64,000 nucleotides of DNA from Naegleria gruberi. Taxonomy: Eukaryota. This document shows positions 7,645 through 36,749 of this stretch, in pieces. Each line of letters opens with the position of its first letter. Position 1 is the first letter of the stretch. The notes beneath the pieces are model-generated. The model saw nothing but the letters and a program-made list of their open reading frames with translations, was not told the DNA's origin and did no database searches. Position numbers and translations under genes: made by a program. The DNA lies in the NCBI GenBank assembly GCA_000004985.1, contig GG738892.1; one strand, 5' to 3'.

Positions 7645-10600
7645 TTATTCTTGGTTATTGAAATAGTCATTAAATAACTGGTTAACATGTTCAATTGAAA
7701 GTGAATATAAATTAGTATTAGCATTACTATTAGAAAGTGTATTATTATTGCTACTCCTATCTTCATCCTTCTTCATAATTGGTTCAAATATGGTAAATAA
7801 AATATGAATAAGTTGTTGTAAACTTGGACTCTGATAACCGTATTGATTAGCAATCTTTGAAATGATAGTATTCTTAAATGTTGAACTACATGATAAGAAG
7901 AGTAAAATATCACTTTCCAAATCAAAAGATAATAATCTATAAATAATACATGCCATATTAAGATAATCTTCATGAGTATTATTTGATTTGGCATTAATTT
8001 TCAAATCAGTTAAAACCATTCTATCAACTTGATCATTATTTATGGAAATTAAAATATTAGTCAACTTTAAATTTCCATGATATTGATGTGAAACAATTTC
8101 AAATAAACGTTTTGTAATTGATTTTAATAATCTGTGTGAAATTGGTTTTCTTAAATTAGTAATAAGTTGATGTAAATCAATCATATTAGATTGATATTCA
8201 GTTACAATACAAAATTGTCTTCCATTAATTGGTGAAAACCATTCAAATCCATCCAAAATTGGAAGTATATGTTTCTTATTACTTAATTTAATCATATATT
8301 GAATAAATGTATTTAAATCTAATTTTGAATACATTTTAATAACAACATTTTGATTACTTGTTAAATCTTTAAATAAATGTGATTCACTATTAAATGATAA
8401 TTCATTATTATTACTACTATTATTGGAATAATTATTAATAGTATTATTATTACTATTATTATTAAATTGATAAGTGTGTAATTGTTGATGTTGATTAAAT
8501 AATTTTAATGGTCTAATTAATTGATACTTGTTTTGAATTAAACTTGTTGAATTAATTAATTGTTGTTGTTGTTGTTGAGGTTTTACAATTTCATTCAATG
8601 GTTGATAACCCAATTCTTCATCTAATTTGTTAAATAATTGATTATCCATAAGTGATGATGATGATAATGACATTGAATTAAATTGTGCTTCCAAATCAAT
8701 TTCTTGTGTTTTTGTTAATTCTACAAATGGAATTGTATTATTATTACTTGAATATTGATTATTTAATGTTTGTTTTACAATAATTCTATTTAAATTTGGA
8801 TATTCTTTTAAAAATTCAAATGAATCATTATCTAAATCAAGTAATGTTTGACATTGTTCATCATAATAATAATAAATATTTTCATTCTTTACAATATTAC
8901 CATAAATAGAATTATGAATTGCTGTTTTAAGCTCCATAGCATTTAATATATTATTTAATTTAATCTTTTTCTTAATTGTTGTATTCTTTCCATTCATACA
9001 AGTAGCTGTTATAAATAGTAATAGAGTTTTTCTTGCATAATTATTATTATCAATATTATTACTATTATCATTATTTAATAGTATGATATTAGAGTTATTA
9101 TTATTGGTAGATATTAAATTACTATTATTAGAAGGTGAAATAGAAGTTAATAATGGTGGATCTCTTAAATATTTAACAATTGAATCATGTTGATGATCCA
9201 ATGCTAATTGTAATGCATTTTTACCATTTAAATTAATGGAATGAACATCAGCATGATATTGTTCTACTAGTAATTTAACCAAATCAAAATGTCCCTTTTT
9301 AGATGCACACATTAATGGAGTATAACCATATTTAGCATCTCTAACATTGGCAGATTCACCACATGATAATAAAAATTTAACAACATCTAAATGACCAGTA
9401 AATGATGCATTATGAATAGGTCTATTACCATTCTTGGTTGGTATGGTAAAATCTGCCTTTTTCTTTACTAATAATTTGGCAATTTCCAAATTATTATATC
9501 GACATGCCAAACCAATAGGTGTCCAATTAATTTTAGTTCCCCTAGCATTAATTAAATCTTGAGATTGATTAGGATAATACAAATCAATCATTTCAATTAG
9601 AAATTGTGCCATTTGAGTATGTCCTTTCTGTGAACACCAATGAAGTGGTGAATAGGACCACTCATCAGGTTCACGTATTACTAAATATTCTCTATTTTTC
9701 ATAATCATATTTTCAACAGTGAATAAATCATTCTTTTTAACAGCTTTGAAAAAGAATTGATTCAATGGTTCTCTAATATTCTTTCTCTCTAATTCTCTAA
9801 TAAATAATTCAACTATTTGTGAATGACCTTTTTCATAGGCCCAATATAATGCTGTATCTCCTTCTTTACTTTTTATGGAAACATCCGCACCACGTGAAAG
9901 TAAATATCTGACAGCATCAATATGACCTTCCTGAGATGCCATCATGAGTGGTGTAAATTGATCTTTACTATCTTGAACATTAACATCTTCTCCACCAAAT
10001 TCAACTAACAATTTCAATACTTCCAAACTATTATAAAATGCAGCTGAATGAATAGGTCTATTACCACTTGTAGTTGTGAGAGACATGACACTTCCTGCTT
10101 GTAATAATAATTTAGCAACATGTGAATGATTATATTTAGCAGATAAACCAAGTGGTGTCCATTTAGTTCTCAATGATTTTCTATTAATTAAATGTTTAAC
10201 TATTTGTGGTGAAAATTGTTCTTGTGCAAATTTAATTAAAATTTGTGCTGTTTGATAACAACCCTTCTGAGCAATCCAATGAAAACAACTATATCTCCAT
10301 TCATCATCTTCAACACAATTTAAATAATTTGGATTTAATTTAATTAATTGTTGGACGAGAATGTAATTATCCTTCTTTACATGTCTAATAAAATATGGAA
10401 CACATAATTGTTGTAATGTTAAATTATTATTCAGCTGTTGACTTGTTAAATTATAATCCAATGTATTGCTAGTAGTTGTAGAAGTAGTAGTAGTTGTAGA
10501 TAAATTAGTAATAGTAGTAGAGGTAGTATGATGATTATTTTGATTATTATTTTGATTAATGACATATAATAAAGATTGAGTATTATTCTTTAAAAATCTA

Positions 10601-11415
10601 CAAACATCTTCATTATTAATTTTAAAAGCCAAATCTCTTGGATTTTCATTACTAAAATTAAATAAAGTTTCATCTGCCAACATGTCATTAATTAATGAAA
10701 TGACTAATTCTAAATGACCTGATAAAATTGATAAATGTAATGGTGTATTACCATTTAAAGAAGTATGTCTAATATTAACATCTTCACCATATTCAATTAA
10801 TAATTTTACCATTTTAATATTTCCATGATAAATTGCTAATGTATGAATAGGTCTATTATTGGAAATATTTACAATTGAATAATCTGCTCCTTTTTCTAAT
10901 AATAATTTCATCATATCATATGCATTAGATTGTTCATTTAATATTAATTTACTATTTATGGAATTATTTATGGATGGTGTAATAAATTTAGTTAATAATT
11001 GACCACTATGTTTACAAAGTAAATTTAAAGGTGTCCATTGATTAATATTTGTTGTTTGATTAATCCAATCTTTTAATTGATCTTTTCCAAATAATCTTTC
11101 AAAATTATCAATTAAATAATAAAATATTTCTCTATTGACAGTTTGACATGCAATGTGAAGTGGTGTATATTTCCATTCTTGACATGATGTTGTTTTTAAT
11201 AAAAATCTACCAATCTTCTCCATTAAAATGTCACACGTCAATACATCATTTTGTTCAATACATTGCATGAAATGATCAATGAGTGAATTTAATAATTTCA
11301 TTTCATTAGTATTCTTTTGTATATCAATATCTTCATTAATTGTATTATATTCAATATTATTTTCTATATTATTGTTGCTATTATTATTAGATATATTTCC
11401 ATTTATAGTAGTAGT

Positions 11416-11452
<37 letters not shown>

Positions 11453-12960
11453 GTAAATAATTCAATATTATTTAAAGTATTCTTTTTACAAATATTTAAC
11501 ATGTTAATCATTTCATCTCTTAAATAATTTGCCAATTCAAAATGTTGATTTCTATAACTCCAATATAAAGCATCATTTCCATATATATTTTTATGAGTTA
11601 AAATGGAAACTAACAAATCAATATTATTATTTCTATATAAAGAAATTAAATATTCAAAAACATCCATTTTGTTCTCTTTTGATGCAATAATTAATAAATT
11701 ATCACCATTACAATCATTTGAATTTAATAATAATTCAATTTGTTGTTGTAAATTGAGTGATGAAAATTTAGTCAATTGTGGAATGAATAATCTTACAATT
11801 TCCAAACAATCATTTCCAGAATAAAGTGAAATTTGTAAAGGTAATTTTCCACTTTTACTTTTTAAAAGTGATAATTTTGGATAAGTTTGTACAAAATATT
11901 TTACAATATCAAAATGTCCATATCTACATGCTATCATTAATGGTGACATTTCATGTATTGAATTGGATTTTAACATTAAATATTCTAATATGGATATATT
12001 TGGAAAATTATCTTTAAATATACTTATTAATTCTTCTACTATATTTAAATGTCCATATTGACATGCCAAATGTAATGCATTATATCCAAATGTTAAATGA
12101 CTTGTTGTAGATACATTTTTATTAAATGAATCTCTAACAAATAATAATAAACATTTTAATATATTGTTGCTATTATTATTATTAGAAGAAGAAGAAGAAG
12201 AAATATTATTATTAGAATTATCATTAGTAGAATTATTAGAATTGTTATTATTTGTAAAATCTTGTAATGTTCCATCTCTAATATTTCTAAAGAATTTACT
12301 CAATTGTGTTAATGAAAAATCTAAAATACTAATACTACTACTACTACTATTATCTACATAATGATCAGAGTATTCTTCATTGGAATCTTCTTCTCCCATA
12401 ATGTCATTATAAAAGCGATGATGATTTTGATGCTGATTACCAATATTAGAAGTATTATTATAATGATTATCATGATGATGGGATTTAAAACTATTTTTAG
12501 CGTCCTGATGAAGAATTTGATTATTTGTATAATGATGATCGGAATGAAAAACATTTCCATCATCACTCATATTTTCATAATGATTTGATGATGAAGATGC
12601 ATCCAATGATAATGGTGATAGACATGAAGCTAATTGTTCTTCCTCTTCTTTTTGATGATTGAAATTAGAGTTAGTAATAGATGTTGTTGTATTAGAAGTT
12701 GAAGCAGTAATAGTATTATTAGGAGTACTCGTTGTATTTGTTATTAAATTTGTTGTATTTTGTTGTTGCTGTTGTTGTTGATAATGTTTAAATTGGAGAC
12801 AAGTTAGTTGATTGTAAATTCTTGAATTGAAATTGTCAAAATTTCTATCATTTGATTTGAAACATTTTAATAGTAAATCCAAATCATATTCAATATTAAT
12901 TAATTCATCGAATTTAATACAATCATGATTGTCTTGATAGGAAATGTTAGAATCTGTCAT
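7645..12960 (-). CDS. Large ankyrin-repeat protein (>20 ANK repeats) with a C-terminal degenerate protein-kinase-like (pseudokinase) domain and poly-Asn/Gln/Thr tracts
   Basis: 1771-aa single ORF. Numerous ANK consensus units occur (e.g. GNTPLHLSILSGHLELVISLI, GYTPLMCASKKGHFDLVKLLV, TPLGLSAKYNHSHVAKLLLQAG). The C-terminal approx. 300 aa has kinase subdomain-like blocks (FCIVTEYQSNMIDLHQLI; HGNLKLTNILI; DLKINAKS) but HRD is replaced by HGN and no GxGxxG loop is seen. Long (AAT)n/(CAA)n coding repeats. Confidence 0.75.
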
Positions 12961-20346: not shown

Positions 20347-21339
20347 ATGGCCAACAGAAAGCAAGCTACCAAGAGAAAGGAATCACCATCCTCATCAGCA
20401 ACCCCATCCGAAAAGAAGAGAAAAACTTCCACTAACAAGCAAGACACAGCAAGCTTGGAGAAGTTTTTAAGAGTTACTTCCGATGATTGTCCTACCTGTG
20501 ATGAACTCATCCAAGCATTCAACAACAAGGAATATTTAGCAGGTGAATTCAAGGAACAATTAGATGAGTGTATTGATGAATATCTTGATTCTCCGGATGA
20601 AGAAGACTCTGTTCAAGTTAAACTCGGAATGACAGAATTTTCCAGAAAGCAATTTACTATTGATGCAGATTTTGATCATGTCCAAAACATGTATGTGTTT
20701 GCATACGACAATGGTGAAAATGGTAAGCGAAAGGGGATTACTTCAATGTCCAAAGTTACTGATAAGAAGAAGACAAATTGTTTCACTCAGTCTGCCAAAT
20801 TGATTCAAGGTGCAAGAAGGGATGGACAATTGAAGATTGTTTTGGCAGTGTGTAAAACAAATTCAGATGTGGAACTTTATATTTCAGAAGAGGAATATAA
20901 AGTCAGTTGGACAGAAAAGAAGCAAGAGTCTGAGAAACTTACAAACGCCTTTGATCAACCAATCAATAATGAAACCTCATTACCAATAGTTCAAACAGAT
21001 CCAATCAAGTCTTTAGAAGACTCTGAAAGAAGAGTTCAAGAACTCGAAGAAAAACTCAAACAATCCCAACAATTTTCCCAGTTTTTGTTTGGTTGGATGT
21101 GTTATTATATGCAATGGTATCCATCTCCACAACCACAAACAACCAATGATGAGTTCTTGCCAGAAAATGAATTAGGGTCCAATATTACAGAATTCTCAAG
21201 TAGATGGATTTCATCAGAATGCGTTAATGGGATGGATTTCTTTCGGCCAACTGTTCAAGAAAAGAAAGATGATGATCCTTCTCAACTTGCAGACGAACAA
21301 ATGCCTGTCATGCCTTTCGCGTATGGTCAAACTCTTTAG
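20347..21339 (+). CDS. Uncharacterised acidic/basic protein, probable nuclear (unknown function)
   Basis: 330-aa ORF. N-terminal KRK-rich region and a central coiled-coil segment (SLEDSERRVQELEEKLKQSQQ). Confidence 0.4.
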   Translation: MANRKQATKRKESPSSSATPSEKKRKTSTNKQDTASLEKFLRVTSDDCPTCDELIQAFNNKEYLAGEFKEQLDECIDEYLDSPDEEDSVQVKLGMTEFSRKQFTIDADFDHVQNMYVFAYDNGENGKRKGITSMSKVTDKKKTNCFTQSAKLIQGARRDGQLKIVLAVCKTNSDVELYISEEEYKVSWTEKKQESEKLTNAFDQPINNETSLPIVQTDPIKSLEDSERRVQELEEKLKQSQQFSQFLFGWMCYYMQWYPSPQPQTTNDEFLPENELGSNITEFSSRWISSECVNGMDFFRPTVQEKKDDDPSQLADEQMPVMPFAYGQTL

Positions 21340-21402: not shown

Positions 21403-24400
21403 TTATTTGAGAAGAAACATGACGATCTTTACGTCATCTCTTGTTGAGAAATCCGAAGGAACATTAACTGTGATATTCTTGAATTCCTCAGGAATGTTTT
21501 TGCCCTTCTTCCATGCTGTTGAGAATGGTTCCCCGAAAAGTGAGGCACTAGTGTCTGTGCTAAATAACTGGAATGCTTGGACAAGGAAATACAAATACAG
21601 AGCTTCCTTACTTGTGAACTTAACATTTCCCTTCTTCTTAAATGACACTTCTACTGAATTTGGAGCGACAAAAGCGACCGGTAATTGCTCTCCTGTCCAC
21701 TTTTCCTTATTAGATGGTTTTTGGTCTCCATAAGCCAAATGTTTGCTACTTACTTCAATCACACTACCTTCACAAAACTCGATAATAGTGGATTGAGAAA
21801 TAGCATGAATGAGTTTTTCCTTAATGGATTTATCCAAACCAACCTCTACAACATTGCTTTCAACTGCAGTTCCTTTGACGTTATCATTTCTTACTGGGAT
21901 ATATTGTGCCTTGATGAATCCCATTAAACACTTATGTGAAAGAACAACAGAGCTTCCTTTTCCATCATTTTCAATAGCACTAGAGTTATCAAACTGGGAA
22001 AGAGGAACAAAAGGACCATTTACACCACTGAAAGATATCAACCACTGAATTATTGATTTACCCTCAATTCCACCATAGTATTCACCTGATACACTTAATT
22101 TACCACCTACAATAGAATTTCCAGTAACAACAACATTTTTGATTGATGGATTGTGTGCTTGAACTGGGTTACTTCTGATATATGCTTCCTTTCCTTTAAC
22201 ACCATCATTTCTAATTGGTAGATATTCCAATTGTATTACTTTTCCAATATCTTTGGTTGTAACACTATACTGCATAATGTCAATCGCAACAACTTCACTC
22301 TTAGATCCATCTAAGCGTCTCCATCTTTTCATACTACTACCTTCTATTCCACCATAGTAAACAGACTCTGCTTGCAATACTCCATCTTCGAGAGGTGTAA
22401 CTTGATCATTCTTTGCTTGTTTGAATTGAAGACTCTTAATGCATGGAAGAGCACCTTCAACTTTTGCAGATTTGAATGACACCTTTTCTCCAACCACGCC
22501 ATCTTGTCTAGTTGGGAAGAACTCTAACAAAATTTGTTTTCCAATATCCTGTGTTCTACAACAATAACTAACCAATTCAGCACCAAGTACTCCTTCAGCA
22601 ACAACTTCTGATTCCCTTCCTTCAGCAACAACAGAGAGAATAAATCTTGATTCACCTTCAAAACCTCCTGAATATGTGAATTCAGACTTGATTGTTTCGC
22701 CTTCAACAAAAGAACCAACAAGCTTACAGGTGCCTTCTGGTTTGGCAGGTTGAACTTCCTCAGTAATTTGTTCGAAAGGCTTTCCAATAATATGAGTGTA
22801 AGGAGAAGTTCTTTTTGGAGTTAGAACAAGTTTAAGTCTACAACCAATATCTTCCAAAGAAATATGATAGTTAATTCCAGATGTCACTTTTTCTTCTTGA
22901 TCTCCTGACACTCTGTACCATTCACAAGTTGTATACACCATATCAAATCCTTTTCCTTTTACATCCTTTACATGGATATTTCCTTCTTCAACAAGTTGCC
23001 CCATCAAACTAATAGATTCAATATAAGGTTTTGAAGGAATAACCAAAGGGCTCAAATCACTACCTGTCCAAAGTGTTTGTTGACCCAGGTTGTCAGTAGA
23101 TCTGCAAAGATATCTGAATTTCTTATTAAACATGGTTTCGTCTACTACCAGCGCATTAGTGTCAATTGAAGAGTCCACACATTCACCTGAAGTTCCATCA
23201 ATAATATGCCACTTGTGCTCTCTCAGAGATTCTTCTGTGATGGAGGAATATTGAGACTCTCCAAGGAGGGTGCACCCGTCACTTAATTCAGCTCCTTCTT
23301 CTCTTCCTTCGTATCTTATTTTTACATTTTCAATTTTTGGAACTGGAAGATCAACAAATGTGGAAGTGAACGCAACAACCTTTTCTCCTTTAGCCATATC
23401 ATCTCTTACAGGAGTAATTTCAACCTTAAACATACAACCTATATCTTCTTTTTGGACAGTATATTTAGGCGTTTGCTCAGCTACCATTTGGTCAAAAGAT
23501 ATTTCTTCTACTGGTGGCAGAGAGCCTGAATTAATAATTTCAGTAGGAAGTTGACAACTTCTGTACCAATTAATGATAGTAAGCCCTTCTGTTCCTCCTT
23601 CATATTTGTAGTGAACCTTTAACAATGCCCCTATTGTTAGCACTCCTTCAATTGTTGGTTCTGAAATTCTAGGAATATCTGGTTCTATCTTTGGAGTTTT
23701 AACTTCAACTGATTCTCCCTTAATTCCATCACTTCTAACAGGAGTGCAGACTATTTTAATTTCCTTTCTGATATCACTCAAATTAATTTGATATTTCTTT
23801 CCGTTTGCATGTTCAATTTTTTCCTCACCATTTTCATCAACCCTGAAGAATTCGAATTCAGAATTTCCTTCAAATCCTCCATAATAAGTAGTATGAACTG
23901 TGATACTATCATTTTCAGCAAACTTTTCGCTTTCTACAGAAACATCAACAAAGGCAGGAGGAGCAGGAGCAACAACATTGGAGATAACTTCGACAGTATC
24001 ACCAATTTTACCATCAGTATTTACAGGTGTGGCAACACATTTAAGTCTTTTACCAACCTGATCTTCTCCAGGAATAATATCTTTCGAGATTGCTCCGTTA
24101 AGCAACTTGAACACACCATCTTCCTCAACTAGCCATTGGAAAGTACATTCACCTTCAATGCCACCAGTAAACGAGTAAGAAACCGATGATGGTTGATCTT
24201 GTTCAAATTTTTCAGAAAGAACTATGTCAAAAATACTTGGCTTCTTGGATTCTACTTGGGAGGAAACTTTGGAAATGGAAATACCTTCCACACCATCATT
24301 TCTGACAGGTGTATAAGAAAGAACCAAATATTTTGAATAATCAGAGCAAGCAATCTTATAAGATTTACCTGTTCCAACAATTGGAGCATCTTCTATGTTC

Positions 24401-25801
24401 TCTGAAGGATCGATAACTAATCTCCATTCGAATCTTGATTCTCCCTCGATACCTCCCTTGAATGAGCTTGTGGCCTCTATTGTTTCTCCTTCCATCACTG
24501 TACCAATAATGTCAAGAGAAGAACAGTATGGCTTTCCAGCTAATACTTCTCCAGTAGTATCCTCAAAAGAAATGAGTTTGTTGGTGTGTTGCTTGAAAAC
24601 AAGAGAAGCACCTAAAGTAGTTGAAATATCATCAAAGACAGCTATATAACAAGTACCAACAGCTCCATTATACCAAACAATTTCAATTTTGAAACTTGAT
24701 CCCTCAGATGGTACTTGATTGACATCAGCAGATATTACCTCGGATCTTCCTGATTCGTTAGCAAAGTAAAATGAATGTGGGCCAACAGGAACTAGTAAGG
24801 TAAGTTTTTCTTCTGCAACCACATCAAAAGAAGCCAAATGCTCATTCTTCTCAAATACAATCTTTGACCACTTTCCTTCTGGAACATCAATTTCTAAAAA
24901 TCCCATTCCTAATGCCTCAACTGAGTAATCTTGATTTGTATCTACCTTAAAAACAGGGAAGAATCTTACTTCTTCCTCTTCTACAGGATTTTGACAATCA
25001 AAACAATAGTTTAACAAATGGAATGGTGTTCCTTTTGAAATTTGCCTTTGAGCATCAAGAAGCCAATCTTTTGAAAAAGCTTTTAACTTTTCAAACTCTT
25101 CAAATTCTTCTTCATAAGGAATTAATAAACCTAGCAATACTGATTCTGAAATTGTTCCTCTATAATTTGCTGCATTTTCAAGAGTCTCATCGCTAAGCAG
25201 TTCTCTATTCAATGATCTCAATTTACTGAATAGAGCTATGGCTATCTCTTTGAACTTGTTAATTTCTACAATTGGGTTATCTGAGAGATCTAAAGAATCA
25301 AGCTCTTCGAATGATTTTACATTTTGAAAGTTCTTAATACGATTATTTGGAGCACTAAAAGCTCTTAATTTAGGAAGAGCAGGACCGTCCCATTCACTGA
25401 TCGAGTTGTTTCCAAGAATTAAGGATTCCAATTCCTTGAGATTTGGCATGGACATGAGAGAAGTAATCTTATTATGTGTCAAAAATAAATGTTTAAGAAC
25501 TGGCATATAAGACAAGAAGGATAAGTTCTCAATATTATTTGAACTCAAATCCAATACTCTCAACAATGGAAATTCAACTTGAATATTTAAAGTTTTTGGT
25601 AAATCTCCATTTCTGGCATACAAATATTCATATCCAAATAGTTCATTAAAATCAAAGGTTCCCAATTCTGTATTACTAATATTCAATTTCTAATTTGTTC
25701 AATCGTTAAAGCATCATAAAATTGTTTTCACTTACCTTTACAGTTTCCACTTTCTTTGGTTGAGAAGAAAGAGCCTTTTTCTTCATTGGAGATTCCGGCA
25801 T
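21403..25801 (-). CDS. AIR9-like protein: N-terminal SDS22-type leucine-rich repeats followed by about 9-11 tandem Ig-like A9 repeats
   Basis: Two exons: complement(25736..25801) encodes MPESPMKKKALSSQPKKVETVK. A 46-nt GTAAGT...TAG intron spans 25690-25735. Then complement(21403..25689). The ORF-track start at 25686 is a TTG. LRR block LDLSSNNIENLSFLSYMPVLKHLFLTHNKITSL. The repeated approx. 100-aa unit carries [FY]xGGhEGxSxxxW (YSGGFEGESRFEW, FTGGIEGECTFQW, YYGGFEGNSEFEF, YEGGTEGLTIINW, YYGGIEGSSMKRW, YYGGIEGKSIIQW). Confidence 0.65.
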
Positions 25802-26028
25802 CTTCTTAGATCCTATTAACGAAGAGAAGGTAAATAAACGTCTTGAGACTTGATGATAACAAACCTTGAGGTGCTATTGTTGGAGGCATTTTTTTATTTT
25901 AAAAATTGTATTTTGGTTTGGCGGGAGAAATACTGAAGTCATTTAAGATCTGTCTTAATTTGTCAACGAGAATCAAAAAGTACGAGATTGGTTGATAACA
26001 ATGTTTAATTATTCTCAATAATATTACT

Positions 26029-27504: not shown

Positions 27505-30500
27505 TTAAAAGAAGAATGTGGCTTGATTCAGCTCTTGGATGGATCTTAAAATATTATCAGAGTTAGTACCAATTTGACGAGCTAAATCTCTTTGTAAAAT
27601 TGTGTTAATGTTTGCATAATTCCAAATCAGTTGACCATCAATGATATTCTTCTTATAATTGTATTCAGTACGTTCGAGTGGCTTGTATAATCTGAAAGAT
27701 TTTGGATGTAACCCTGCTGCTTGTTCCAATTGTGTGTACATCTTTAACTGTAAGGCAAATAATCTTCTGTGAGTTACTTCGTTAATTGGAGCAACATAAC
27801 CAATAGCACCATCTACGCTTCCAAATAATATAAATTGGTGATTAGGATTAGTTTTTGTGATATCCTTTTTACCTGATTGTTTTGGTTTTTCATTTACATT
27901 ACCCAATCTAATGGTGTTATCGTCAGGTAATTCTCTTACTTTCATTCTTATAAGGCTGTTAATAAGGGTACCAATGTGGAAATCACAAACTGGGACCAAA
28001 TTTCTACCATCGTTACTTTCTTGATGCTGAGGCAGATAGGAGAAGATTTGAAGATTCTTACTAGTGTCAATAACTGCCAATCCAAGTAAATCATTATTCA
28101 CAAGGAATTCTGAAGAGACAACTTGAAGTGGTCTGTTATCTTTGGCAAGAAGAATTAATCTGTGACCCTTTTCCTTCCAACGTAAAAAGCTTACGCTCTT
28201 ATAGATATCACCAAACATGATAAAGTTTCTAACAGTATTTAAACTTGCAGTATAAAATTGAGTGTCATAGAAAGATGTAATATGCATTCTCTTTTCTTCC
28301 CAATCAAAGTAGTACGTATAAATACGATTACCAACACTACAAATAATATATCTGTCAACTTGTTCAAGAGTTGTAATTGGTCCTTTAACAGATGTTGAAG
28401 AAATTAAATTCAACTTATACTCATTTTCTCTTCCAAGAATTGGATCCAAATCAAATAATAAAAGTCTTCCTCTACATAATTCTCTTTCACTTTGTACATA
28501 GGCTGTTCCTACAGCAACTACAGAAACCAAGTCTTGCTTTCTGCTGTTCAATGGCTCTTCAAATGATATATCAGTATCGTCATTATATTCTTCCTTAGAC
28601 AAATAAACTACCTTTGCTGCCACAGCAGACTCATGAAGATCAAATTCAAACTTGTCCATTTCTTGCCAATTGTGTCCTGAAAATAATTTTACAGTGTGCT
28701 TTTGTTCGGCTGGAGGAGGGCATTTACCCTCAGGGAAAGGAATACTATCAGGTAAAATGGCCTTTACAGGAACAGATGTGAAAGCTAAACAAGTATTAGT
28801 ATCTTGATGGAATGTAATAACGTTAGGAGTACTCTTGAGCAAAATCTTTCTTTGTGGCCAGTAGGCGTTAAATTTAACATTAGCATTCAAACTTGAAATG
28901 TGTAACTTTGATTGTTTCTTATTATCTTGTTCTTTGTCTGTTAAATAAATAAAACCATGAGGACAGTTTTCGTGGTGATATGGTGTGAAGGTAGTAACAG
29001 GATCTCTACTTTGTGTTGGATGTACTCTGAGGTTAGAGTGTTCTGTAAATAACCAAAAAGGTTTTTCACCAGTTTTGAATAAACCTCCATAACCTCCAAT
29101 GTTTTTGAATGGAATAAGTTGGGATCTTCCTAGATCTGATTTTGGAAATAAATATTTAGATTTAAGATTGAGGGTAAATGTTTGACTCTTCTTGTCAATT
29201 TCAGATATTGGTAATAAATCGTCGTGTTGGAATTTAGAGAATCTTAGTCTTGTTAATCTGTTATCTTTGGATTTTGTTGTTCTATCTAAAAATGATCTAT
29301 AGATATGTACAGTATTATCGCTCAATACAGAAACAAGATATGGCATCTCGCTATCTGAGCCAATTCCTCTTAAAGCCATTTCTGTAACATATGGATACTT
29401 GACTTCAGATTGTGTAGTATTACTTGATTGTCCTTCATCAAACAGAGTTGTGTGGAATTGATAAAATTGAGAGAATGAGAATACACATGTCATATCTGGA
29501 ACAGATAAAATCTCGAAAGCACCATCAGTCCAATATACACAACATAAATATTTGCCTTCTTTTTCATTGATTCCAAAAAATTCAAACTCTGGATTGGTCT
29601 TGTACAGACATACTGCTGTTATCTTTCCATGATTAGATTCAATATCAAGTTGTTTGCTTGTCACTCTTCCGTTATCATGGGTGAGTAAAACTAAACTTCC
29701 ATCATAAAAATGAAGTAGGACATAAGGATCTAATATTATGGAAGATCTTATTTCCTTCTTGGAATGGTGAACTTGCTTTGGTTCAGATCCAATAAGCATT
29801 ACGCTTTTACGAGTTACTTGCACTATAGATTCTCTTATTTTACCAATATTCAAAGTTGTTTCATTTGTAACAAACATTGATTTTGACGTTACTTCAGCAA
29901 GGGTTGCCTTGGATTCAAATACTTTAGTCTTATCTTCTAAACTTAAAATTAAATACAAATCATGTTCAGTTTTTTGGGAAATAGTCCAAACTTGCTTGAC
30001 TAAAAATGGTAGAGTAGCTTCTGATTGAATATCAGGTTGTAGACTTCTATTCAAAACGGTCAAACAACCATGTCTACCAATACCAGAACAAGCAATAGCA
30101 GAAAGTTGATTATCGTTTGTTTTAGACTTGAATCCTGACATATCAAAAGAAGAAGTAACAGCTGCTGTCAAGTGTGATATTGGACCAATATTTGTAAAAA
30201 CATGTTTGATTTTGAGTTCTACCTTTGTTGTTTCTTTCTTAGAGACCTTGGAAAAGGATTCTATTACTGTTGGTTCTTCATCCTTTTCTAAAGCAGCAAA
30301 AAAGTCATCATCATCAGCTAACTTTCTCTTCTTTTTCTCTGGTTCAAAGTTTTCTCCAGCAGCAAAAACGGATGACATTTCTTCATCAGTATCCAAACTA
30401 CTAGTTTCCACCTCTACTTTTTCTTGATATTCATAAAGAACTGAATCACCAATCTTGGATCCAAGGAAAATAAGATTTCCTTTCAAAGTACACATGCAAG

Positions 30501-31626
30501 AGGCTGGTGTTGTGTTGGATGTCTTCTTGATGTTGATATTATTAATTCTACTTCCTCCAGACTCTAAATACATTGTATAAAGCTCACCATCCTTCAAAGA
30601 AACTAAAAGTTTATCCCTTGCTATGAAAGTGTATGCAACTGTATCAAAGAAGAGTGCAGGCCCATCAAAAGTATTAAAGTTAATTGATAAATTAGGATTC
30701 GAAACAGCAAAATCGTTGAAGGATAATCCATAAGTTGCACATTGATTAATATGAATGATAGAATTCATTCCAATAACCAATGCTCCACCAGCAACATCCT
30801 CTTGTAATGGAATCAATTTGTTACAGTCATGTGGTAATGATCCAACACTCCAAATCTTAGGATAATACTTTCTAAATAAATCGAATGATACAGCTGTCAC
30901 AGTTGATGTATTACTCTTAGCTGCAAGTCTACCACTCCAAGTTTGTTCATTCTCGTGCAAGAATAAAATTGTTGGTTCATTGTATCCATTCAAAAAGCAA
31001 TAGTCTTTCACATTTTTAATTCCTAGATCGTTTAAATCGATAATTACTTGTCTTTGCACTTCTGGTTGATGATGTTTTTTTTGATCTCCAACATTTTCAT
31101 TTGCTTCCTCTTGATCCCCAGAAAGAGCAAATAAAAAGTTATCCTCAGTTGAAAGTGATACATCCTCTCCAGATTGTCTGAATGGTAAAATTACTAATTT
31201 AGAGTCGCAAATAATTACTGTAGCAAATCTATTTTGTGGATCCAAAATAATTGGTTGATTGTGAAAGAATCTAGCTTTACCTTCTCTCAAAAAGTCATCT
31301 TCGAGATAATGCAAAGATAAAGTTTTAAGATCACTCCTCTTCTCATCAAACTCCACAACAGATACTTTTGCTTCATCTTCAAAGTTAATTAAAAGCATTT
31401 CCTTTTTCATACCCTGAAGACAAACAGCAATTATAGAATCAATTACTCCAAATAATTCAAAAACTTTTACAAGAACAATATTGGATGTATTCGGTTTGAT
31501 TAAATAAACCTCCATAATGTTGTTTTTAACAATGATCAGATTTTCATCATTAGCTGATGTAAATCGTGCCTTCAAACAGAATGACACAGCTGTTGGAGGA
31601 TGAAGCTGTTTGTAGCACGCGAACAT
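27505..31626 (-). CDS. CPSF1: Cleavage and polyadenylation specificity factor 160-kDa subunit (CPSF1/CPSF160; WD40-like beta-propeller + CPSF_A)
   Basis: Intronless 1373-aa ORF. The N-terminus MFACYKQLHPPTAVSFCLKARFTS aligns to my recollection of the metazoan CPSF1 start ([24 protein letters not shown]). Length and propeller-like periodicity fit the CPSF1/DDB1/SF3B3 family. Confidence 0.8.
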   Translation of the reverse strand: MFACYKQLHPPTAVSFCLKARFTSANDENLIIVKNNIMEVYLIKPNTSNIVLVKVFELFGVIDSIIAVCLQGMKKEMLLINFEDEAKVSVVEFDEKRSDLKTLSLHYLEDDFLREGKARFFHNQPIILDPQNRFATVIICDSKLVILPFRQSGEDVSLSTEDNFLFALSGDQEEANENVGDQKKHHQPEVQRQVIIDLNDLGIKNVKDYCFLNGYNEPTILFLHENEQTWSGRLAAKSNTSTVTAVSFDLFRKYYPKIWSVGSLPHDCNKLIPLQEDVAGGALVIGMNSIIHINQCATYGLSFNDFAVSNPNLSINFNTFDGPALFFDTVAYTFIARDKLLVSLKDGELYTMYLESGGSRINNINIKKTSNTTPASCMCTLKGNLIFLGSKIGDSVLYEYQEKVEVETSSLDTDEEMSSVFAAGENFEPEKKKRKLADDDDFFAALEKDEEPTVIESFSKVSKKETTKVELKIKHVFTNIGPISHLTAAVTSSFDMSGFKSKTNDNQLSAIACSGIGRHGCLTVLNRSLQPDIQSEATLPFLVKQVWTISQKTEHDLYLILSLEDKTKVFESKATLAEVTSKSMFVTNETTLNIGKIRESIVQVTRKSVMLIGSEPKQVHHSKKEIRSSIILDPYVLLHFYDGSLVLLTHDNGRVTSKQLDIESNHGKITAVCLYKTNPEFEFFGINEKEGKYLCCVYWTDGAFEILSVPDMTCVFSFSQFYQFHTTLFDEGQSSNTTQSEVKYPYVTEMALRGIGSDSEMPYLVSVLSDNTVHIYRSFLDRTTKSKDNRLTRLRFSKFQHDDLLPISEIDKKSQTFTLNLKSKYLFPKSDLGRSQLIPFKNIGGYGGLFKTGEKPFWLFTEHSNLRVHPTQSRDPVTTFTPYHHENCPHGFIYLTDKEQDNKKQSKLHISSLNANVKFNAYWPQRKILLKSTPNVITFHQDTNTCLAFTSVPVKAILPDSIPFPEGKCPPPAEQKHTVKLFSGHNWQEMDKFEFDLHESAVAAKVVYLSKEEYNDDTDISFEEPLNSRKQDLVSVVAVGTAYVQSERELCRGRLLLFDLDPILGRENEYKLNLISSTSVKGPITTLEQVDRYIICSVGNRIYTYYFDWEEKRMHITSFYDTQFYTASLNTVRNFIMFGDIYKSVSFLRWKEKGHRLILLAKDNRPLQVVSSEFLVNNDLLGLAVIDTSKNLQIFSYLPQHQESNDGRNLVPVCDFHIGTLINSLIRMKVRELPDDNTIRLGNVNEKPKQSGKKDITKTNPNHQFILFGSVDGAIGYVAPINEVTHRRLFALQLKMYTQLEQAAGLHPKSFRLYKPLERTEYNYKKNIIDGQLIWNYANINTILQRDLARQIGTNSDNILRSIQELNQATFFF

Positions 31627-31780
31627 TGTATTGGAAATTTTTTTAATTTATTTTTATTAAAATTTATTTGTTGTGATGAAGTTTTTCTGTGTTGAAAGGC
31701 TTGCATTGATTGTTTTCTTCTTGAAATAAATTTAGAAAACAACACATTCAACTATTTACATAGCAATAACAGAGTTTAAT

Positions 31781-34207
31781 TTAAAGTTCGGAATAGAACT
31801 TGTAGAGCAATTCTCTAACTTGGAAATAGGTTGGACTCAGAGAACCAAAAACTTGAATTTCTCCAGACTTTTTATCCTTTTGCAACATGACTTCATCATT
31901 GCAAACAAGAACACCTCCTTGTTGGAACTCAGCTGACAAGCCACTTTCTTTCAATAATTTGAAGAATTGATTCAACTTTAAATCACCAATGAGCATTGTT
32001 GGATGGCCCTTTGGTTTTGGATTTGGGTGAATGCAAGGAATATCGCTGCCTTCTTCAACTCTATAGATACCTTCAATATAAGCCATATCATAATTAGTAC
32101 CACTCTTAATATAATGAATTTGACTTAATAAATCTTGTTTCAGCTTGACTTTAAACATGTTGGTATCCATTGTCATGTCCATAACTTCTAGATCCATTGG
32201 AGTTTTGATTTGTTCTGAAATTTTCTTAGTTTCACAATAATCTGAAAGCTCAATAATTGATTCTTGAGATCCGTGAATTAAAATTAGTTTTCTAGGGTTA
32301 ATCTTTTGTAAAATATTCTTGATGTCTACAGGAGAGGATCTTCCTTCAAAATCTAAATAAGCTAATTTACAAAGAATTCTTACACTGACATTTTCAGATT
32401 CAATCTTAGATGGAGGTTCATAATAATCTTCTTCTTCATGAATAGTATTGTCAGCCATTATTTGTTCACTTTGATCTGCTTGAAGCAATCTAAGTTTGAA
32501 ATCTTCAGGGTCAACTGACTCACCATACTCATCTTTAGAAATACCTCTTTCAATACATGGAAACATCAAATATTGTGAATGATAACGCATATTCTCAGGT
32601 AGGTAAAGTCTGGCATGAGTTTGAGAATCATCATCAGCACCTCCTGTTAATTCTTCTCTGAATTGTTTCGATTTCTTCAAGTCCAAATCTTCATCGTCTT
32701 CATCTCTAACGTGAATAACTCTCTTATTTCTTTCTTCTTCTTCTCTTCTTTTCTTTTCAGCTTCTTGTTTCAATTGTTGTTCTTTTTCATATTTTTCCAA
32801 TTCTTCTCCTTTGAGAGCAACTCTACGATACAATGTTAAACTCATATTTTCGTCTAATCTTTCTGATTTTTTAGCTCTTAACTTGTTAATCAATTTTCTT
32901 GATAAAGAGTTAGGAGCAGACCTCTCAATAAACATAACCAAATTTCTTTGATCCTCACACCACTTTACAAATAGTTCTCTAGCATATCCGTAATCTAAAG
33001 TATTTGAAGAAGCCAAAACAACCATAGGTGTATGTTTTCCAGTAGTAGCTGTTTCTTCATCTTCGTCATTCATTTGATTTTCCATCATCATTCTCATTTG
33101 TTCTTTCTTTTGTAACTTGTCCATTAATTCTTCAACATTGTGACAAACACTAAAATATTGGAATTTAAATGGATTTTCACGTTTTTCATCGAATCCCTTC
33201 ATAATTTTATCACTCATCCATTCCAGTTGATGGGATGCAAATTCTATAGTTCTGTAAGCAACATTTGTCAATAAAATCAATTCAAAATTAGCCATTTGGG
33301 GATCTCTTTTCCATCTTTCTTCCAAAAGTAACATTAATTCGAAAACTCTACCAGCTGTCTCAATTGGTACAAGAACGTTTCCTCCACCGGTTAAGGTATC
33401 TGTTATTGATTTCATAATCTTGATTGCTGGTGCCTTATCTACCCCTCCAAGATCTGAGCTTGGAATAGGTTTCACATTGTATGCATCTGTGATTAAAAGA
33501 GCTGGTTTACCACCAAGTTCTCCTAATACAGACCCATTCAAATGTCTTTCTGTTTTGATGTTAAAATCTATGGCATATACAATTTCATCTGTCTCCTTTG
33601 TTAATTTCCAAATAGTACCACCTAGTGTGTGACCGGCTAAGAATGGACAAATGACTAGTTTCTCACCTTCCATTTCTGCAACAGATCCTGATGATCCAAC
33701 AACACCACCTTCACCTTCTTCTCCATTCTCATCGGTTTCTTCAATTTGTGTTATTATTGTTGTTTGTTGTGACAATGGATATCTTTGACTATATTTTAAT
33801 TGATGAATAGAATCAAAACAAAGATCTACATCATCCAAGTCAAATGTTTCAAAATCTTGATGTTGTCTTATATTTTGGTAAGCATCATAAAGATGCATTT
33901 GGCCCATTTTAACAATAGGTAATGTTGCAAATATTTTAGCCTTCTTCTTATTTTCCAAAATACCACATTTACCAACAAGATATGGTAAAGCACCACAGTG
34001 GTAAATATCACTTTGGGAAATTAAAATAGCATCAATTTTATCCCGATAATTGTTGATAATTTCTTGAATATGTGAATCCTTTGTATTAAAATTTTCATCC
34101 CATCCACAATCCAACAAAATATAATAATCATCAACAATTAATATCGAACAAACAGGTCCTTCATTTTGTGATCCAACAAGAGGAACAAATTGAATCGAAC
34201 TGCTCAT
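31781..34207 (-). CDS. CPSF2: Cleavage and polyadenylation specificity factor 100-kDa subunit (CPSF2/CPSF100; metallo-beta-lactamase / beta-CASP / RMMBL)
   Basis: Intronless 808-aa ORF. MSSSIQFVPLVGSQNEGPVCSILIVDDYYILLDCGWDE matches the CPSF2 N-terminus (…LLDCGWDE block, as recalled). An acidic insert and C-terminal CPSF100_C-like region are present. Confidence 0.8.
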   Translation of the reverse strand: MSSSIQFVPLVGSQNEGPVCSILIVDDYYILLDCGWDENFNTKDSHIQEIINNYRDKIDAILISQSDIYHCGALPYLVGKCGILENKKKAKIFATLPIVKMGQMHLYDAYQNIRQHQDFETFDLDDVDLCFDSIHQLKYSQRYPLSQQTTIITQIEETDENGEEGEGGVVGSSGSVAEMEGEKLVICPFLAGHTLGGTIWKLTKETDEIVYAIDFNIKTERHLNGSVLGELGGKPALLITDAYNVKPIPSSDLGGVDKAPAIKIMKSITDTLTGGGNVLVPIETAGRVFELMLLLEERWKRDPQMANFELILLTNVAYRTIEFASHQLEWMSDKIMKGFDEKRENPFKFQYFSVCHNVEELMDKLQKKEQMRMMMENQMNDEDEETATTGKHTPMVVLASSNTLDYGYARELFVKWCEDQRNLVMFIERSAPNSLSRKLINKLRAKKSERLDENMSLTLYRRVALKGEELEKYEKEQQLKQEAEKKRREEEERNKRVIHVRDEDDEDLDLKKSKQFREELTGGADDDSQTHARLYLPENMRYHSQYLMFPCIERGISKDEYGESVDPEDFKLRLLQADQSEQIMADNTIHEEEDYYEPPSKIESENVSVRILCKLAYLDFEGRSSPVDIKNILQKINPRKLILIHGSQESIIELSDYCETKKISEQIKTPMDLEVMDMTMDTNMFKVKLKQDLLSQIHYIKSGTNYDMAYIEGIYRVEEGSDIPCIHPNPKPKGHPTMLIGDLKLNQFFKLLKESGLSAEFQQGGVLVCNDEVMLQKDKKSGEIQVFGSLSPTYFQVRELLYKFYSEL

Positions 34208-34396
34208 TTTTTTTAAATTTGTATTTTAATATTTTATTAATCATGGAAATCAGAGCACTTTAAAACAATTTCAAGGAGGAACCTGTTGTCTACAGTTCTG
34301 TCTTGTTTCTTCTAGAGCAACAACAAGATAAAACCAGACTTCCTAACCCCATCTTCAAAAAACAAATTAATTTTTAATTTTTAATATTTTTAAAAA
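34208..34396. promoter_or_regulatory. 189-bp bidirectional promoter region shared by CPSF2 (minus) and CstF-77 (plus)
   Basis: Start codons at 34207 (minus) and 34397 (plus) face away from each other. The spacer is AT-rich and otherwise featureless. Inferred from gene arrangement only. Confidence 0.4.
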
Positions 34397-36749
34397 ATGT
34401 CCAGAGACAGGTATGCTGATCAAGATGATGACTATGAACAATCATCGGGTGGCAAAAACGACAAGATACAAAGTGCTGAAGCAAGAATCGAACTTAATAA
34501 GTATGACACAGAAGCTTGGACCGTAAGTAACAACAATCTAAAACAAATTTTCTAACATGTCATCATTAGATTTTGTTGTCAGAAGTACAAGAAATGAGCA
34601 TCATCCAAGCAAGACCATACTATGAACGATTTTTTGAAATATATCCAGTAGCTGTAAGTAATGATATTAGTGATTAATATTAACCTTCCATCAGGCAAGA
34701 TATTGGAAAATATATGCTGAACATGAATTAAAAGCAAAGAACCATACTCTAGCTGAGGAAATATTTAAAAAGGCATTGGATGCTTGCCCTAACTTTGAAT
34801 TGTGGAGATTTTATTTGGATTATATTAGGGAACATAAAAGAAATGATGTGGATACAATTCGTAAAGCCTTCGATATTTGCAAAGAAAAGGTTGGGCTTGA
34901 TATTTCAAGCTCAACTCTATGGATTGACAACATTAAATTCATAAAAGATCTTAAAGCAACTGATCAAAATGATATTCAAAACCAAATCAATCTTTTGAGA
35001 AGTCTCTATCAAGAAGCTATTCAAATTCCTATGCATGATATCGAAAAGATTTGGAAAGATTATGAAATTTTTGAAAATGAAGTCAACCCAACCAATGGGA
35101 AATCAACTCTTCAAGAATTTGCTCCAAAGTTCAAATTGGCTCTCAATAAGTATAAGGAAAAGAAAAATATCAGAGAAAATATGGGTGGAGTAGGAGGTTT
35201 ATTATTAAATATGTTGGCGACACCACCAACAAACTCTGAGAAGGAAAGATCACAAAAACAAATCTGGAAGGATTTAATAGAACTTGAAAAGAGAAATTCA
35301 CAAAGACTAACAGCTGATGAACTCAAAAGAAGAGTTCTTTTTGTTTATAGTCAATGCTTCCTCTGTTTTAGACATCATCCTGATATTTGGTATGATGCTG
35401 CTAATTATTTGATTTCTATTCAGTGTCACGATGAAGCAACAATAGTTTTTCAACGTGGATGTAACGCATTATTACCTGTTCCAAAATCATTGGATGCCAA
35501 TCAATCACAAGAGGGAAGTATTTTACTCCATCTTGCATTTTCAGAATATTTGGAATCAAGAAAGCTCTTTGACGAAGCAGCTAAAGTTTTCAAAACTCTT
35601 ATCACATCAAAACATGACCCTCTAGTTTTTATTCAATATATCAGATTTATGAGACGTACCAAAGGAACAGAAGGAGCTAGAGAAGCATTTATTGAAGTTA
35701 AAAAATCTCCAAAATGTACATACCATGTGTGGGTTGCATCAGCTCTTCTTGAATATACTACTAACAATCAACCAGAGACTGCAAGAAAATTTTTCAAACT
35801 AGGTCAGAATCAACCATTCGGAAAAGAACCAGGTTTTATTCTTGAATACTTAAAATTCCTAGACCATCTAAATGATAAGAATAACTCTAGAGTTCTTTTT
35901 GAAACAATTCTTAATGAATTACCAAAAGAACAATCCTCTGAAATATGGAATAGATTTTTACAATTTGAATACTCAATAGGCGATTTGAATTCGATAGAAA
36001 AGGTTGAACAAAGAAAACTTGCAGCCTTTTCAGAGAATGCTGAAAATAATACACCTTCTAATAGTGGTTTCGAAAATACAGTCAACGCTACCAACAGCCT
36101 TATAAATCTCATCAATAGAAGCAAGTTTTTAGATTTATGGCCTTGTACACCTAGTGAAATGGAGTTACTCAATTTGAAAGCACAAGAAAGCGAGAAAGTG
36201 CCAACAGAAGACGATATCCATATCAAATATTCTAAATCATTTTATCGTGTTGATTACACAAAGCAAATCATGTTTACAAACACTAGACAACAAAATCAAG
36301 GCTCAGTAGATAAACTCAATAGTAATCGTACAGCACCTCCAACAGTTTCTCTCCCTCCAGAATTCAACAAATTTAGACAATACCTTAACCAAAAGAGACT
36401 TTTCCTTCCGGATTTTAAGCAAATGTGTGAATTCAAAGTTATTCCAAACCATGTCTCACAATCTAATTCATCCCTTCCCCTAGTAACAGTACATGATGAG
36501 CAAGTAATTCCTCATACAGTACTTCAGATTTTAAGGAGAATGCCTCAACAACATTTTGCTGTTATTCCTCCAGATTATGTTATTAATGCATTGATGACAA
36601 CTCCACTTCCACCCCCACCTGAATCAGATCTTAAAAGAGGTAGAAATGAATATGAAAATGTTGATTATGACCAAGAGTATGATGATGAAGGTCCAGCAGA
36701 TAGAGCCTATGATGATATTTACACAAAGAGAAGAAAGCAAAGGAAATAA
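34397..36749 (+). CDS. CSTF3: Cleavage stimulation factor 77-kDa subunit (CstF-77 / CSTF3 / Suf / RNA14 family; HAT-repeat protein)
   Basis: Three exons: join(34397..34522, 34570..34653, 34695..36749). Introns are 47 and 41 nt (GTAAGT...TTAG / ...TCAG). Exon-1/2 peptide ...KYDTEAWT|ILLSEVQ... parallels metazoan ...KYDLDAWSILIREAQ. Later blocks HHPDIWYDAANYL, VFIQYIRFMRRTKG, DKNNSRVLFETIL, EIWNRFLQFEYSIGDL and FLDLWPCTPSEME match conserved CstF-77 segments as I remember them. Confidence 0.8.

What the first reader, a model, noticed from the sequence alone, without database searches (positions are those of the whole stretch)
21403..25801. AIR9-like architecture (SDS22-type LRR followed by tandem A9 Ig-like repeats) in a non-plant protist
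The 1449-aa protein has N-terminal LRRs and at least 9 repeats with the motif [FY]xGGhEGxSxxxW. This is the defining arrangement of the plant microtubule-associated protein AIR9, which to my recollection is otherwise reported mainly from land plants and excavates. Finding the full-length architecture here extends its distribution. It also offers a tractable unicellular system for a cytokinesis and cortical-microtubule factor.
Basis: partly seen in the sequence, partly recalled or inferred. Interest (0 to 1): 0.55.

Follow-up and report, generated by a model that had tools for sequence, protein, structure and literature searches.

The report
AIR9-like cytoskeletal protein gene of Naegleria
The gene really does encode a full-length relative of the plant microtubule-associated protein AIR9, but the window comes from Naegleria gruberi, which belongs to the 'excavate' protists where AIR9 relatives were already known, so it is a correct but fairly ordinary identification.

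Summary
Observation confirmed. A minus-strand gene (main exon 21403..25689, short 5' exons up to 25801 or 25889) encodes a 1450/1462-aa protein. It has six 21-23-residue SDS22-type LRRs and a tandem array matching Pfam IG_AIR9 (PF23197, E=1e-109, 8 stretches).

The array holds 9 A9 units.

Further modules: a short basic N-terminal tail, two cryptic beta-sandwiches between the LRRs and the A9 array, and a C-terminal PH-fold domain.

The protein aligns collinearly with plant AIR9 (E=4e-63 over 1376 columns). In a rough tree it sits with Heterolobosea inside a Discoba clade, opposite streptophytes.

The window is Naegleria gruberi NEG-M, and the gene is the public XP_002673222.1 ('leucine rich repeat protein'). 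Naegleria is a heterolobosean (Discoba, an 'excavate'). AIR9 homologues have been reported in land plants and excavates since 2007, and the jakobid and diplonemid orthologues are already labelled AIR9. The claim of an extended distribution therefore fails.

Modest new points:
- No searchable paper was found that names a Naegleria AIR9.
- The architecture is closer to the plant type (9+2 Ig domains plus PH) than the reduced five-A9 TbAIR9.
- The likely role, inferred only, is a scaffold on flagellate cortical microtubules or the mitotic/cytokinetic apparatus.

The parts
25865..25889 (-). Optional first coding exon of the public model (MPPTIAPQ + first base of a Gly codon).
   Evidence: Sequence read. 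The three-exon reconstruction translates exactly to XP_002673222.1 / P0030.
25813..25864 (-). 52-nt intron (GTTTGT...AATAG) of the public model.
25736..25812 (-). Short 5' exon. It encodes the basic Ser/Pro-rich N-terminal tail.
   Evidence: The tail has pI 10.0-10.2 and net charge +4 to +6.
25690..25735 (-). 46-nt intron (GTAAGT...TTAG).
   Evidence: The junction is supported by alignment to the Willaertia orthologue.
21403..25689 (-). Main coding exon, including the stop codon at 21403-21405.
25231..25632 (-). Six SDS22-type leucine-rich repeats (residues 42-175 of the 1450-aa model, period 21-23 residues).
25024..25230 (-). LRR cap and helical linker (residues 176-244).
   Evidence: The AF2 model of residues 201-407 shows a helix at 221-240. 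This stretch aligns with the post-LRR region of plant AIR9.
24751..25023 (-). First cryptic beta-sandwich (residues 245-335), positionally equivalent to the AMPK1_CBM-like 'glycogen-binding' domain of euglenozoan AIR9.
24541..24735 (-). Second cryptic beta-sandwich (residues 341-405), an A9/SCAB-Ig-like domain lacking the GGxEG motif.
23320..24537 (-). A9 units R1-R4 (residues 407-812), canonical, each with GGxEG and PxRxDG.
22747..23319 (-). A9 units R5-R6 (residues 813-1003), degenerate with no GGxEG. R6 is detected by HMM. R5 is detected only by spacing and positional orthology.
21805..22746 (-). A9 units R7-R9 (residues 1004-1317), canonical.
21406..21801 (-). C-terminal PH-fold domain (about residues 1319-1398) followed by a small helical bundle (1399-1450).

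Best explanation
This is the Naegleria gruberi orthologue of AIR9, the microtubule-associated scaffold known from plants (AtAIR9) and trypanosomes (TbAIR9). It was inherited vertically within Discoba.

Shown here: the protein is a modular rod. From N to C it has a short basic Ser/Pro-rich tail, six SDS22-type LRRs with a cap, two cryptic beta-sandwiches, nine A9 Ig-like domains and a PH-fold domain with a helical tail.

Inferred from the characterised homologues: the protein probably binds a microtubule array, either directly through the basic tail or through partners docked on the LRR and Ig surfaces. It would then act as an extended scaffold, with about 11 Ig-like domains in series, and its PH-fold end would contact membrane or a peptide partner at the cortex.

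N. gruberi amoebae have no interphase microtubules. The arrays available are the cytoplasmic microtubules of the flagellate stage and the mitotic spindle. I think the flagellate cortical array is the more likely site, by analogy with the trypanosome subpellicular corset and the plant cortical array. A role in positioning the nucleus or division plane is the second possibility.
For: Identity:
- Pfam IG_AIR9 E=1e-109 with 8 stretches, plus LRR families.
- One collinear BLASTP alignment with Rhynchospora AIR9 runs from the LRRs to the end of the A9 array (E=4e-63, 1376 columns).
- Exhaustive HMMER finds 525 representative clusters. Many share LRR + middle region + A9 array + PH.
- Named relatives are Willaertia, Percolomonas, Stygiella, Andalucia ('AIR9'), Diplonema ('AIR9'), Entosiphon, Mesostigma and angiosperms.
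- A rough NJ tree recovers Heterolobosea (98%), Euglenozoa (92%), Jakobida (96%), and a clade of these three Discoba groups plus one unnamed sequence (P0054), 100%, separate from streptophytes (100%).

Genuine Naegleria gene:
- Neighbouring proteins are exact matches to NEG-M proteins.
- The gene has two short spliceosomal introns.
- A 99%-identical intact copy lies on an environmental contig, with 15 synonymous and 13 non-synonymous codon differences.

C-terminal PH fold.

Function of homologues:
- AtAIR9 binds cortical microtubules, the preprophase band and the phragmoplast, and returns to the division site.
- TbAIR9 decorates the subpellicular array although it lacks the plant basic domain. 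It controls nucleus position, cleavage-furrow placement and the distribution of the array protein PAVE1 (PMC3488599; PMC8168904; PMC9614452).

Naegleria microtubule biology: PMC10802493.
Against: - There are no expression, localisation or binding data for the Naegleria protein.
- The plant microtubule-binding domain (a basic Ser-rich segment, about 270-300 aa before the LRRs in the plant sequences examined) is reduced here to 22-34 aa.
- Pfam PH_AIR9 does not match the C-terminus at E<=5.
- The AMPK1_CBM model does not match the middle region.
- The tree is only a distance tree built on a repeat-rich alignment.
- The most recent inventory of Naegleria microtubule components (PMC10802493) does not mention AIR9 in its main text, so nothing places it in the 'differentiation' or 'mitosis' set.
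Confidence: 0.85

Rival explanations
1. It is a bona fide AIR9 orthologue, but in Naegleria it works at the mitotic spindle or in cytokinesis (nucleus and division-plane positioning), not on flagellate cortical microtubules.
For: AtAIR9 marks the division site and the phragmoplast. TbAIR9 depletion mis-positions nuclei and cleavage furrows (PMC3488599; PMC9614452). In amoebae the only microtubules are those of the spindle (PMC10802493).
Against: There are no Naegleria data. In both characterised systems the primary localisation is a cortical interphase array. Naegleria cytokinesis is described as actomyosin-based (own knowledge, consistent with the review PMC6881465).
Confidence: 0.25
2. It has the AIR9 architecture but works independently of microtubules, as a cortical or membrane scaffold. 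The PH-fold domain and LRRs would recruit partners to the actin-rich cortex of the microtubule-free amoeba.
Against: TbAIR9 also lacks the basic domain yet is microtubule-array associated. The PH superfold does not by itself predict lipid or actin binding.
Confidence: 0.1
3. It is not an AIR9 relative at all. It would be a generic LRR + Ig-repeat protein, a contaminant, or a horizontal transfer from a plant or bacterium.
For: Some distant hits in the exhaustive search look like bacterial-type Ig-like repeat proteins without LRRs, for example P0061 and P0065 with about 20 repeats. The public name is only 'leucine rich repeat protein'.
Against: There is a dedicated A9 profile match, collinear full-length alignment to plant AIR9 and a species-like gene tree. 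The gene has spliceosomal introns and lies among exact N. gruberi neighbours. G+C is typical of the window.
Confidence: 0.02

Closest known systems
Plant AIR9 (Arabidopsis AtAIR9 / At2g34680; represented here by Rhynchospora P0034, Nepenthes P0052 and Mesostigma P0040)
   Same: Same module order: basic S/T/P-rich N-terminus, about six SDS22-type LRRs, a tandem A9 Ig array and a C-terminal PH-like domain. The alignment is collinear at E=4e-63. The last A9 unit and the atypical sixth unit keep their positions. The total of 11 beta-sandwich domains (2 cryptic + 9 A9) equals the 11 A9 stretches Pfam finds in plant AIR9.
   Different: The N-terminal basic segment is 22-34 aa, against 266-297 aa before the LRRs in the two angiosperm AIR9 sequences examined. 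The Pfam PH_AIR9 model is not matched. Two middle units are degenerate. Overall identity is about 25%. The organism has no preprophase band, phragmoplast or interphase cortical array in its amoeboid stage.
Trypanosoma brucei TbAIR9 and other euglenozoan AIR9-like proteins (Entosiphon P0079, Diplonema P0110)
   Same: Same supergroup (Discoba). Both have LRRs followed by a beta-sandwich and A9 Ig domains, and both lack the long plant basic domain.
   Different: TbAIR9 is described with only five A9 domains, and Entosiphon shows 5-6. N. gruberi has nine, plus a clear PH-fold C-terminus. The euglenozoan middle domain matches AMPK1_CBM (E about 1e-13), while the N. gruberi one does not. No TbAIR9 sequence was available here, so the comparison rests on the papers' descriptions.
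Heterolobosean and jakobid orthologues (Willaertia magna ABK040_005387, Percolomonas, Stygiella, Andalucia godoyi ANDGO_05123 'AIR9')
   Same: Same full architecture: LRR + middle region + 9 A9 + PH. Willaertia is 42% identical end to end, with 9/9 positional repeat correspondence.
   Different: The basic N-terminal tails are longer in the others (51-128 aa). Otherwise these are simply orthologues.
SCAB1 fused Ig-PH module (plant actin-binding protein, PDB 4dix)
   Different: SCAB1 has no LRRs and no long Ig array, and it binds actin. The similarity is at the level of a module, not of the family.
SDS22/PPP1R7, DRC3 and dynein light chain LC1 (the source of the plant database name 'outer arm dynein light chain 1 protein')
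   Same: They share the 22-residue SDS22-class LRR block (E 1e-9 to 1e-5).
   Different: They have no A9 or PH domains. The similarity is confined to residues of about 20-220.

Membership tests
AIR9 / AIR9-like | Tandem A9 Ig-like domains (Pfam PF23197 IG_AIR9) | tested here: met
   E=1e-109, 359 bits against a cutoff of 27.5, 8 stretches. There are 9 units by positional orthology.
AIR9 / AIR9-like | Block of about six SDS22-type leucine-rich repeats N-terminal to the A9 array | tested here: met
   Six repeats with a 21-23-residue period. LRR_4 E=2e-12. PPP1R7/SDS22 3.7e-9 and DRC3 4.5e-10.
AIR9 / AIR9-like | Collinear full-length homology to plant AIR9 | tested here: met
   A single BLASTP alignment covers residues 55-1327 against 270-1558 of Rhynchospora AIR9, E=4e-63.
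AIR9 / AIR9-like | C-terminal PH-like domain after the last A9 unit (fold level) | tested here: met
AIR9 / AIR9-like | Direct match to the Pfam PF23218 PH_AIR9 model | tested here: not met
   There is no hit at E<=5 for the last 251 residues. Among the sequences scanned, the model matched only the two streptophytes that have a complete C-terminus (Rhynchospora, Mesostigma) and none of the Discoba.
AIR9 (plant type) | Long basic, serine-rich N-terminal microtubule-binding domain | tested here: not met
   Only 22-34 residues precede the LRRs (pI about 10, net +4 to +6, 32-35% S/T/P), against 266-297 residues in the two angiosperm sequences examined. TbAIR9 also lacks this domain yet associates with the cytoskeleton.
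AIR9-like (euglenozoan type) | AMPK1_CBM / 'glycogen-binding' domain between the LRRs and the A9 array | tested here: inconclusive
AIR9 / AIR9-like | Orthology: groups with AIR9 of related taxa in a gene tree | tested here: met
   NJ tree on 1222 columns with 100 bootstraps: Heterolobosea 98%, the three Discoba groups plus one unnamed sequence 100%, streptophytes 100%. This is a rough method, and no Arabidopsis, Trypanosoma or Trichomonas sequence was available.
AIR9 / AIR9-like | Association with microtubule arrays, the division site or the cortex in vivo | not testable with these tools
   This needs localisation or co-sedimentation experiments. No Naegleria data were found.
SDS22 / PPP1R7, DRC3, LC1 LRR proteins | Protein consists essentially of the LRR domain, with a PP1-binding or axonemal context | tested here: not met
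   LRR similarity is confined to the first ~220 residues of the 1462-aa model (best-matching stretches 17-217). The remaining 1,200 or so residues are A9 and PH domains.

The most novel reading that the evidence does not exclude
The complete 'plant-type' AIR9 (LRRs, about 11 Ig-like domains and a PH domain) may be ancestral to both Discoba and Archaeplastida, with the well-studied trypanosome protein a reduced derivative. In Naegleria, where interphase amoebae have no microtubules, the protein might act at the cortex or division site without microtubules. It would do so through its PH-fold end, linking plant-style division-site marking to an amoeba that divides with actomyosin.
Probability: 0.1. 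Interest if true: 0.6.

Novelty: new member of a known kind. Interest (0 to 1): 0.2.

Why it matters
The finding matters little as a discovery. The gene is already in public databases (XP_002673222.1 / D2VRK8), its 90%-identity cluster already carries a precomputed AIR9 A9 Pfam domain, and it lies inside the taxonomic range (land plants plus excavates) reported for AIR9 since 2007.

It has modest practical value. No searchable paper was found that names a Naegleria AIR9, and the main text of the recent inventory of Naegleria microtubule components does not mention it.

Naegleria builds its flagellate and mitotic microtubule networks from separate component pools. Asking which pool AIR9 belongs to would be a cheap and informative test of what this conserved scaffold does.

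The comparison also suggests that heterolobosean and jakobid AIR9 keep the long plant-like architecture, while euglenozoan versions are shortened.

Tried and rejected
1. Word-indexed homologue searches with the full protein and with the A9+PH region returned mostly LRR proteins and only 2-6 true relatives.

2. A third search used a 41-sequence A9 repeat profile and returned nothing (801 candidates, none at E<=1e-8). That search was wasted, so names for most of the 525 representative clusters could not be obtained.

3. Buschmann et al. 2007 (PMC2634156) and Fritz-Laylin & Cande 2010 are not held. The original taxon list and the differentiation microarray could therefore not be checked.

4. Supplements of Kennard et al. 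2024 are not held, so the expression class of the gene is unknown.

5. The afdb50 fold library was unavailable.

6. PDB sequence search found no solved A9 domain; every hit shown (the best 60 of 90) lies in the LRR region.

7. The first tree attempt timed out and was replaced by a faster NJ procedure.

8. Rejected ideas:
- A plant or bacterial contaminant or transfer. The gene has introns, exact N. gruberi neighbours and a species-like tree.
- An 'outer arm dynein light chain' identity. That name reflects LRR similarity only.

9. Repeat-by-repeat orthology beyond Heterolobosea is only partial. The last unit and unit 6 keep their positions; the others do not resolve.
Full report
**1. What is at the coordinates**

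The interval 21403..25801 lies on the minus strand of an AT-rich window (about 30-36% G+C). It contains one uninterrupted ORF, 21403..25686.

Reading upstream, an ATG at 25801 opens a 66-nt exon that ends at a GTAAGT donor. A 46-nt intron (25690..25735...TTAG) joins it in frame to 25689.

The junction sequence ...VETVK|KLNISNTELGTFDF aligns with ...IESVKKINLSNTELTSFDF of the closest named homologue, which supports the splice.

The public gene model adds one more 25-nt exon (25865..25889, MPPTIAPQG) and a 52-nt intron, giving 1462 aa. My reconstruction of that model is identical to the database protein. The difference is trivial.

**2. Which organism**

Exact-sequence look-ups of neighbouring ORFs return Naegleria gruberi NEG-M proteins on a 342-kb scaffold. 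They identify this gene as EFC40478.1 / XP_002673222.1 / D2VRK8_NAEGR, named only 'leucine rich repeat protein'.

N. gruberi belongs to Heterolobosea within Discoba, the core of the former 'Excavata'.

A 99%-identical intact copy lies on an environmental contig. It differs at 29 of 4263 nucleotides, with 15 synonymous and 13 non-synonymous codon changes.

**3. Is the architecture real?**

Yes.

- Pfam IG_AIR9 (PF23197, 'AIR9 A9 domain') scores E=1e-109 with eight stretches. LRR_4, LRR_8 and LRR_9 cover the N-terminus.
- Six LxxLxLxxNxI repeats recur every 21-23 residues. Their closest solved relatives are internalin B, DRC3 and SDS22/PPP1R7.
- An HMM built from the seven obvious repeats recovers an eighth, degenerate unit at 908-1003 and leaves a unit-sized gap at 813-907.
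- Every one of the nine units has its best match at the same position in Willaertia (9/9 diagonal), and most do so in Percolomonas. The array therefore holds nine A9 units, two of them degenerate.
Chance would give 0.005 relaxed motifs.

**4.

Pfam's PH_AIR9 model matches the plant and Mesostigma proteins but not this one. An iterative profile started from the Naegleria C-terminus picks up jakobid sequences strongly (about 1e-22 to 1e-26). It eventually reaches the PH_AIR9 region of the plant protein (29 bits).

In euglenozoan homologues the first of these two domains matches AMPK1_CBM. This agrees with the 'glycogen binding domain' drawn for TbAIR9 in PMC8168904. In N. gruberi it is below detection.

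Adding 2 cryptic to 9 A9 units gives 11 beta-sandwiches. That equals the eleven A9 domains of AtAIR9 (PMC3488599) and the 11 Pfam stretches in Rhynchospora AIR9.

N-terminus. The segment before the LRRs is basic and S/T/P-rich, as in every homologue examined, but it is only 22-34 residues long. Other Discoba have 51-128 residues and the two angiosperm sequences 266-297.

**5. Relationship to AIR9**

A single BLASTP alignment with Rhynchospora AIR9 runs collinearly from the LRRs to just past the last A9 unit (E=4e-63, 25% identity over 1376 columns).

An exhaustive HMMER scan with the A9+PH region finds 525 representative clusters (E<=1e-3; 65 at <=1e-30). Local annotation shows that many share the LRR + middle + A9 + PH layout.

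Those that could be named fall into four groups:
- Heterolobosea: Willaertia, Percolomonas.
- Jakobida: Stygiella; Andalucia godoyi, already annotated '187-kDa microtubule-associated protein AIR9'.
- Euglenozoa: Entosiphon; Diplonema papillatum, also annotated AIR9.
- Streptophytes: Mesostigma, Nepenthes, Rhynchospora, Carex.

A rough NJ tree (1222 columns, 100 bootstraps) recovers Heterolobosea (98%), Euglenozoa (92%) and Jakobida (96%). The three Discoba groups plus one unnamed sequence (P0054) form a clade with 100% support, separate from a streptophyte clade also at 100%. The gene tree follows the species tree, so the Naegleria gene is a vertically inherited orthologue.

**6. Comparison with what is known**

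The literature states that AIR9 has homologues in land plants and in excavate protists, including Trichomonas and trypanosomatids (May et al. 2012, PMC3488599, citing Buschmann et al. 2007). Naegleria is an excavate, so the finding lies inside the known range and does not extend it.

No searchable paper mentions AIR9 as a Naegleria protein or cites its accessions. The main text of the 2024 inventory of Naegleria microtubule-network components does not mention it. It is therefore an unremarked member of a known family.

One nuance is worth recording. The heterolobosean and jakobid proteins keep the long, plant-like layout (nine A9 units plus a PH domain). TbAIR9 is described with five A9 domains, and Entosiphon shows five or six. 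This suggests reduction in Euglenozoa rather than expansion in plants.

**7. Likely mechanism (inferred)**

AtAIR9 binds cortical microtubules, the preprophase band and the phragmoplast, and returns to the division site. TbAIR9 decorates the whole subpellicular array without a plant-type basic domain. It controls nucleus position, furrow placement and the distribution of the array protein PAVE1.

By homology, I take the Naegleria protein to be an elongated scaffold on a microtubule array. The LRR and Ig surfaces would serve for partners, and the PH-fold end for a membrane or peptide contact.

Interphase Naegleria amoebae have no microtubules; they build only a spindle in mitosis and a cytoplasmic array plus flagella in the flagellate stage (PMC10802493). 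The flagellate cortical array is therefore my first choice (about 0.5), the spindle/cytokinesis apparatus second (about 0.25), and a microtubule-independent cortical role third (about 0.1). None of this is tested.

**8. Verdict**

The AIR9 interpretation is supported. The novelty and significance claims are not. This is a new member of a known kind, of low interest.

Noticed in passing
window 27505..36749: Three consecutive genes encode core mRNA 3'-end cleavage and polyadenylation factors. They are CPSF160/CPSF1 (27505..31626, minus; E=1.6e-158 to human CPSF1), CPSF100/CPSF2 (31781..34207, minus; Lactamase_B_6 + Beta-Casp + RMMBL + CPSF100_C) and CstF77/Suf (34776..36749, plus; Suf E=8e-112). 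Such functional clustering is unusual for a eukaryotic genome.
   Followed up: partly
window 53639..60694 (+): A 2351-aa ORF combines a UPF0669/C6orf120-like domain, a bacterial pre-peptidase PPC domain and a C-terminal mannose-6-phosphate-receptor/ATG27-like domain. This looks like an unusual giant sorting-receptor-like protein.
   Followed up: no
window 7645..12960 (-): A 1771-aa protein dominated by ankyrin repeats (Ank_2 E=1e-97).
   Followed up: no
related proteins P0051, P0061, P0065, P0074, P0083 (one search hits): Very large proteins (2300-4500 aa) carry 15-20 A9-like repeats but no LRRs. Their repeat consensus, Y.Y.D.DGD.EG.S.F.WYR...TPVA.TG, looks like bacterial Ig-like repeats. This suggests the A9 domain has prokaryotic relatives. 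No organism names were obtained.
   Followed up: partly
related proteins P0105, P0114, P0120, P0122, P0124, P0134, P0140: A distinct group of proteins of about 1340-1460 aa has N-terminal LRRs and only four A9 units. All come from unnamed assemblies. If they belong to a supergroup other than Discoba or Archaeplastida, the accepted 'plants + excavates' distribution of AIR9 would need revising.
   Followed up: no
window 20347..21339 (+) and L001 4934..5926: The convergent neighbour 64 bp downstream of the AIR9-like stop codon is a 330-aa protein with no Pfam match (NAEGRDRAFT_51702). It is conserved next to the AIR9-like gene on the 99%-identical environmental contig.
   Followed up: no
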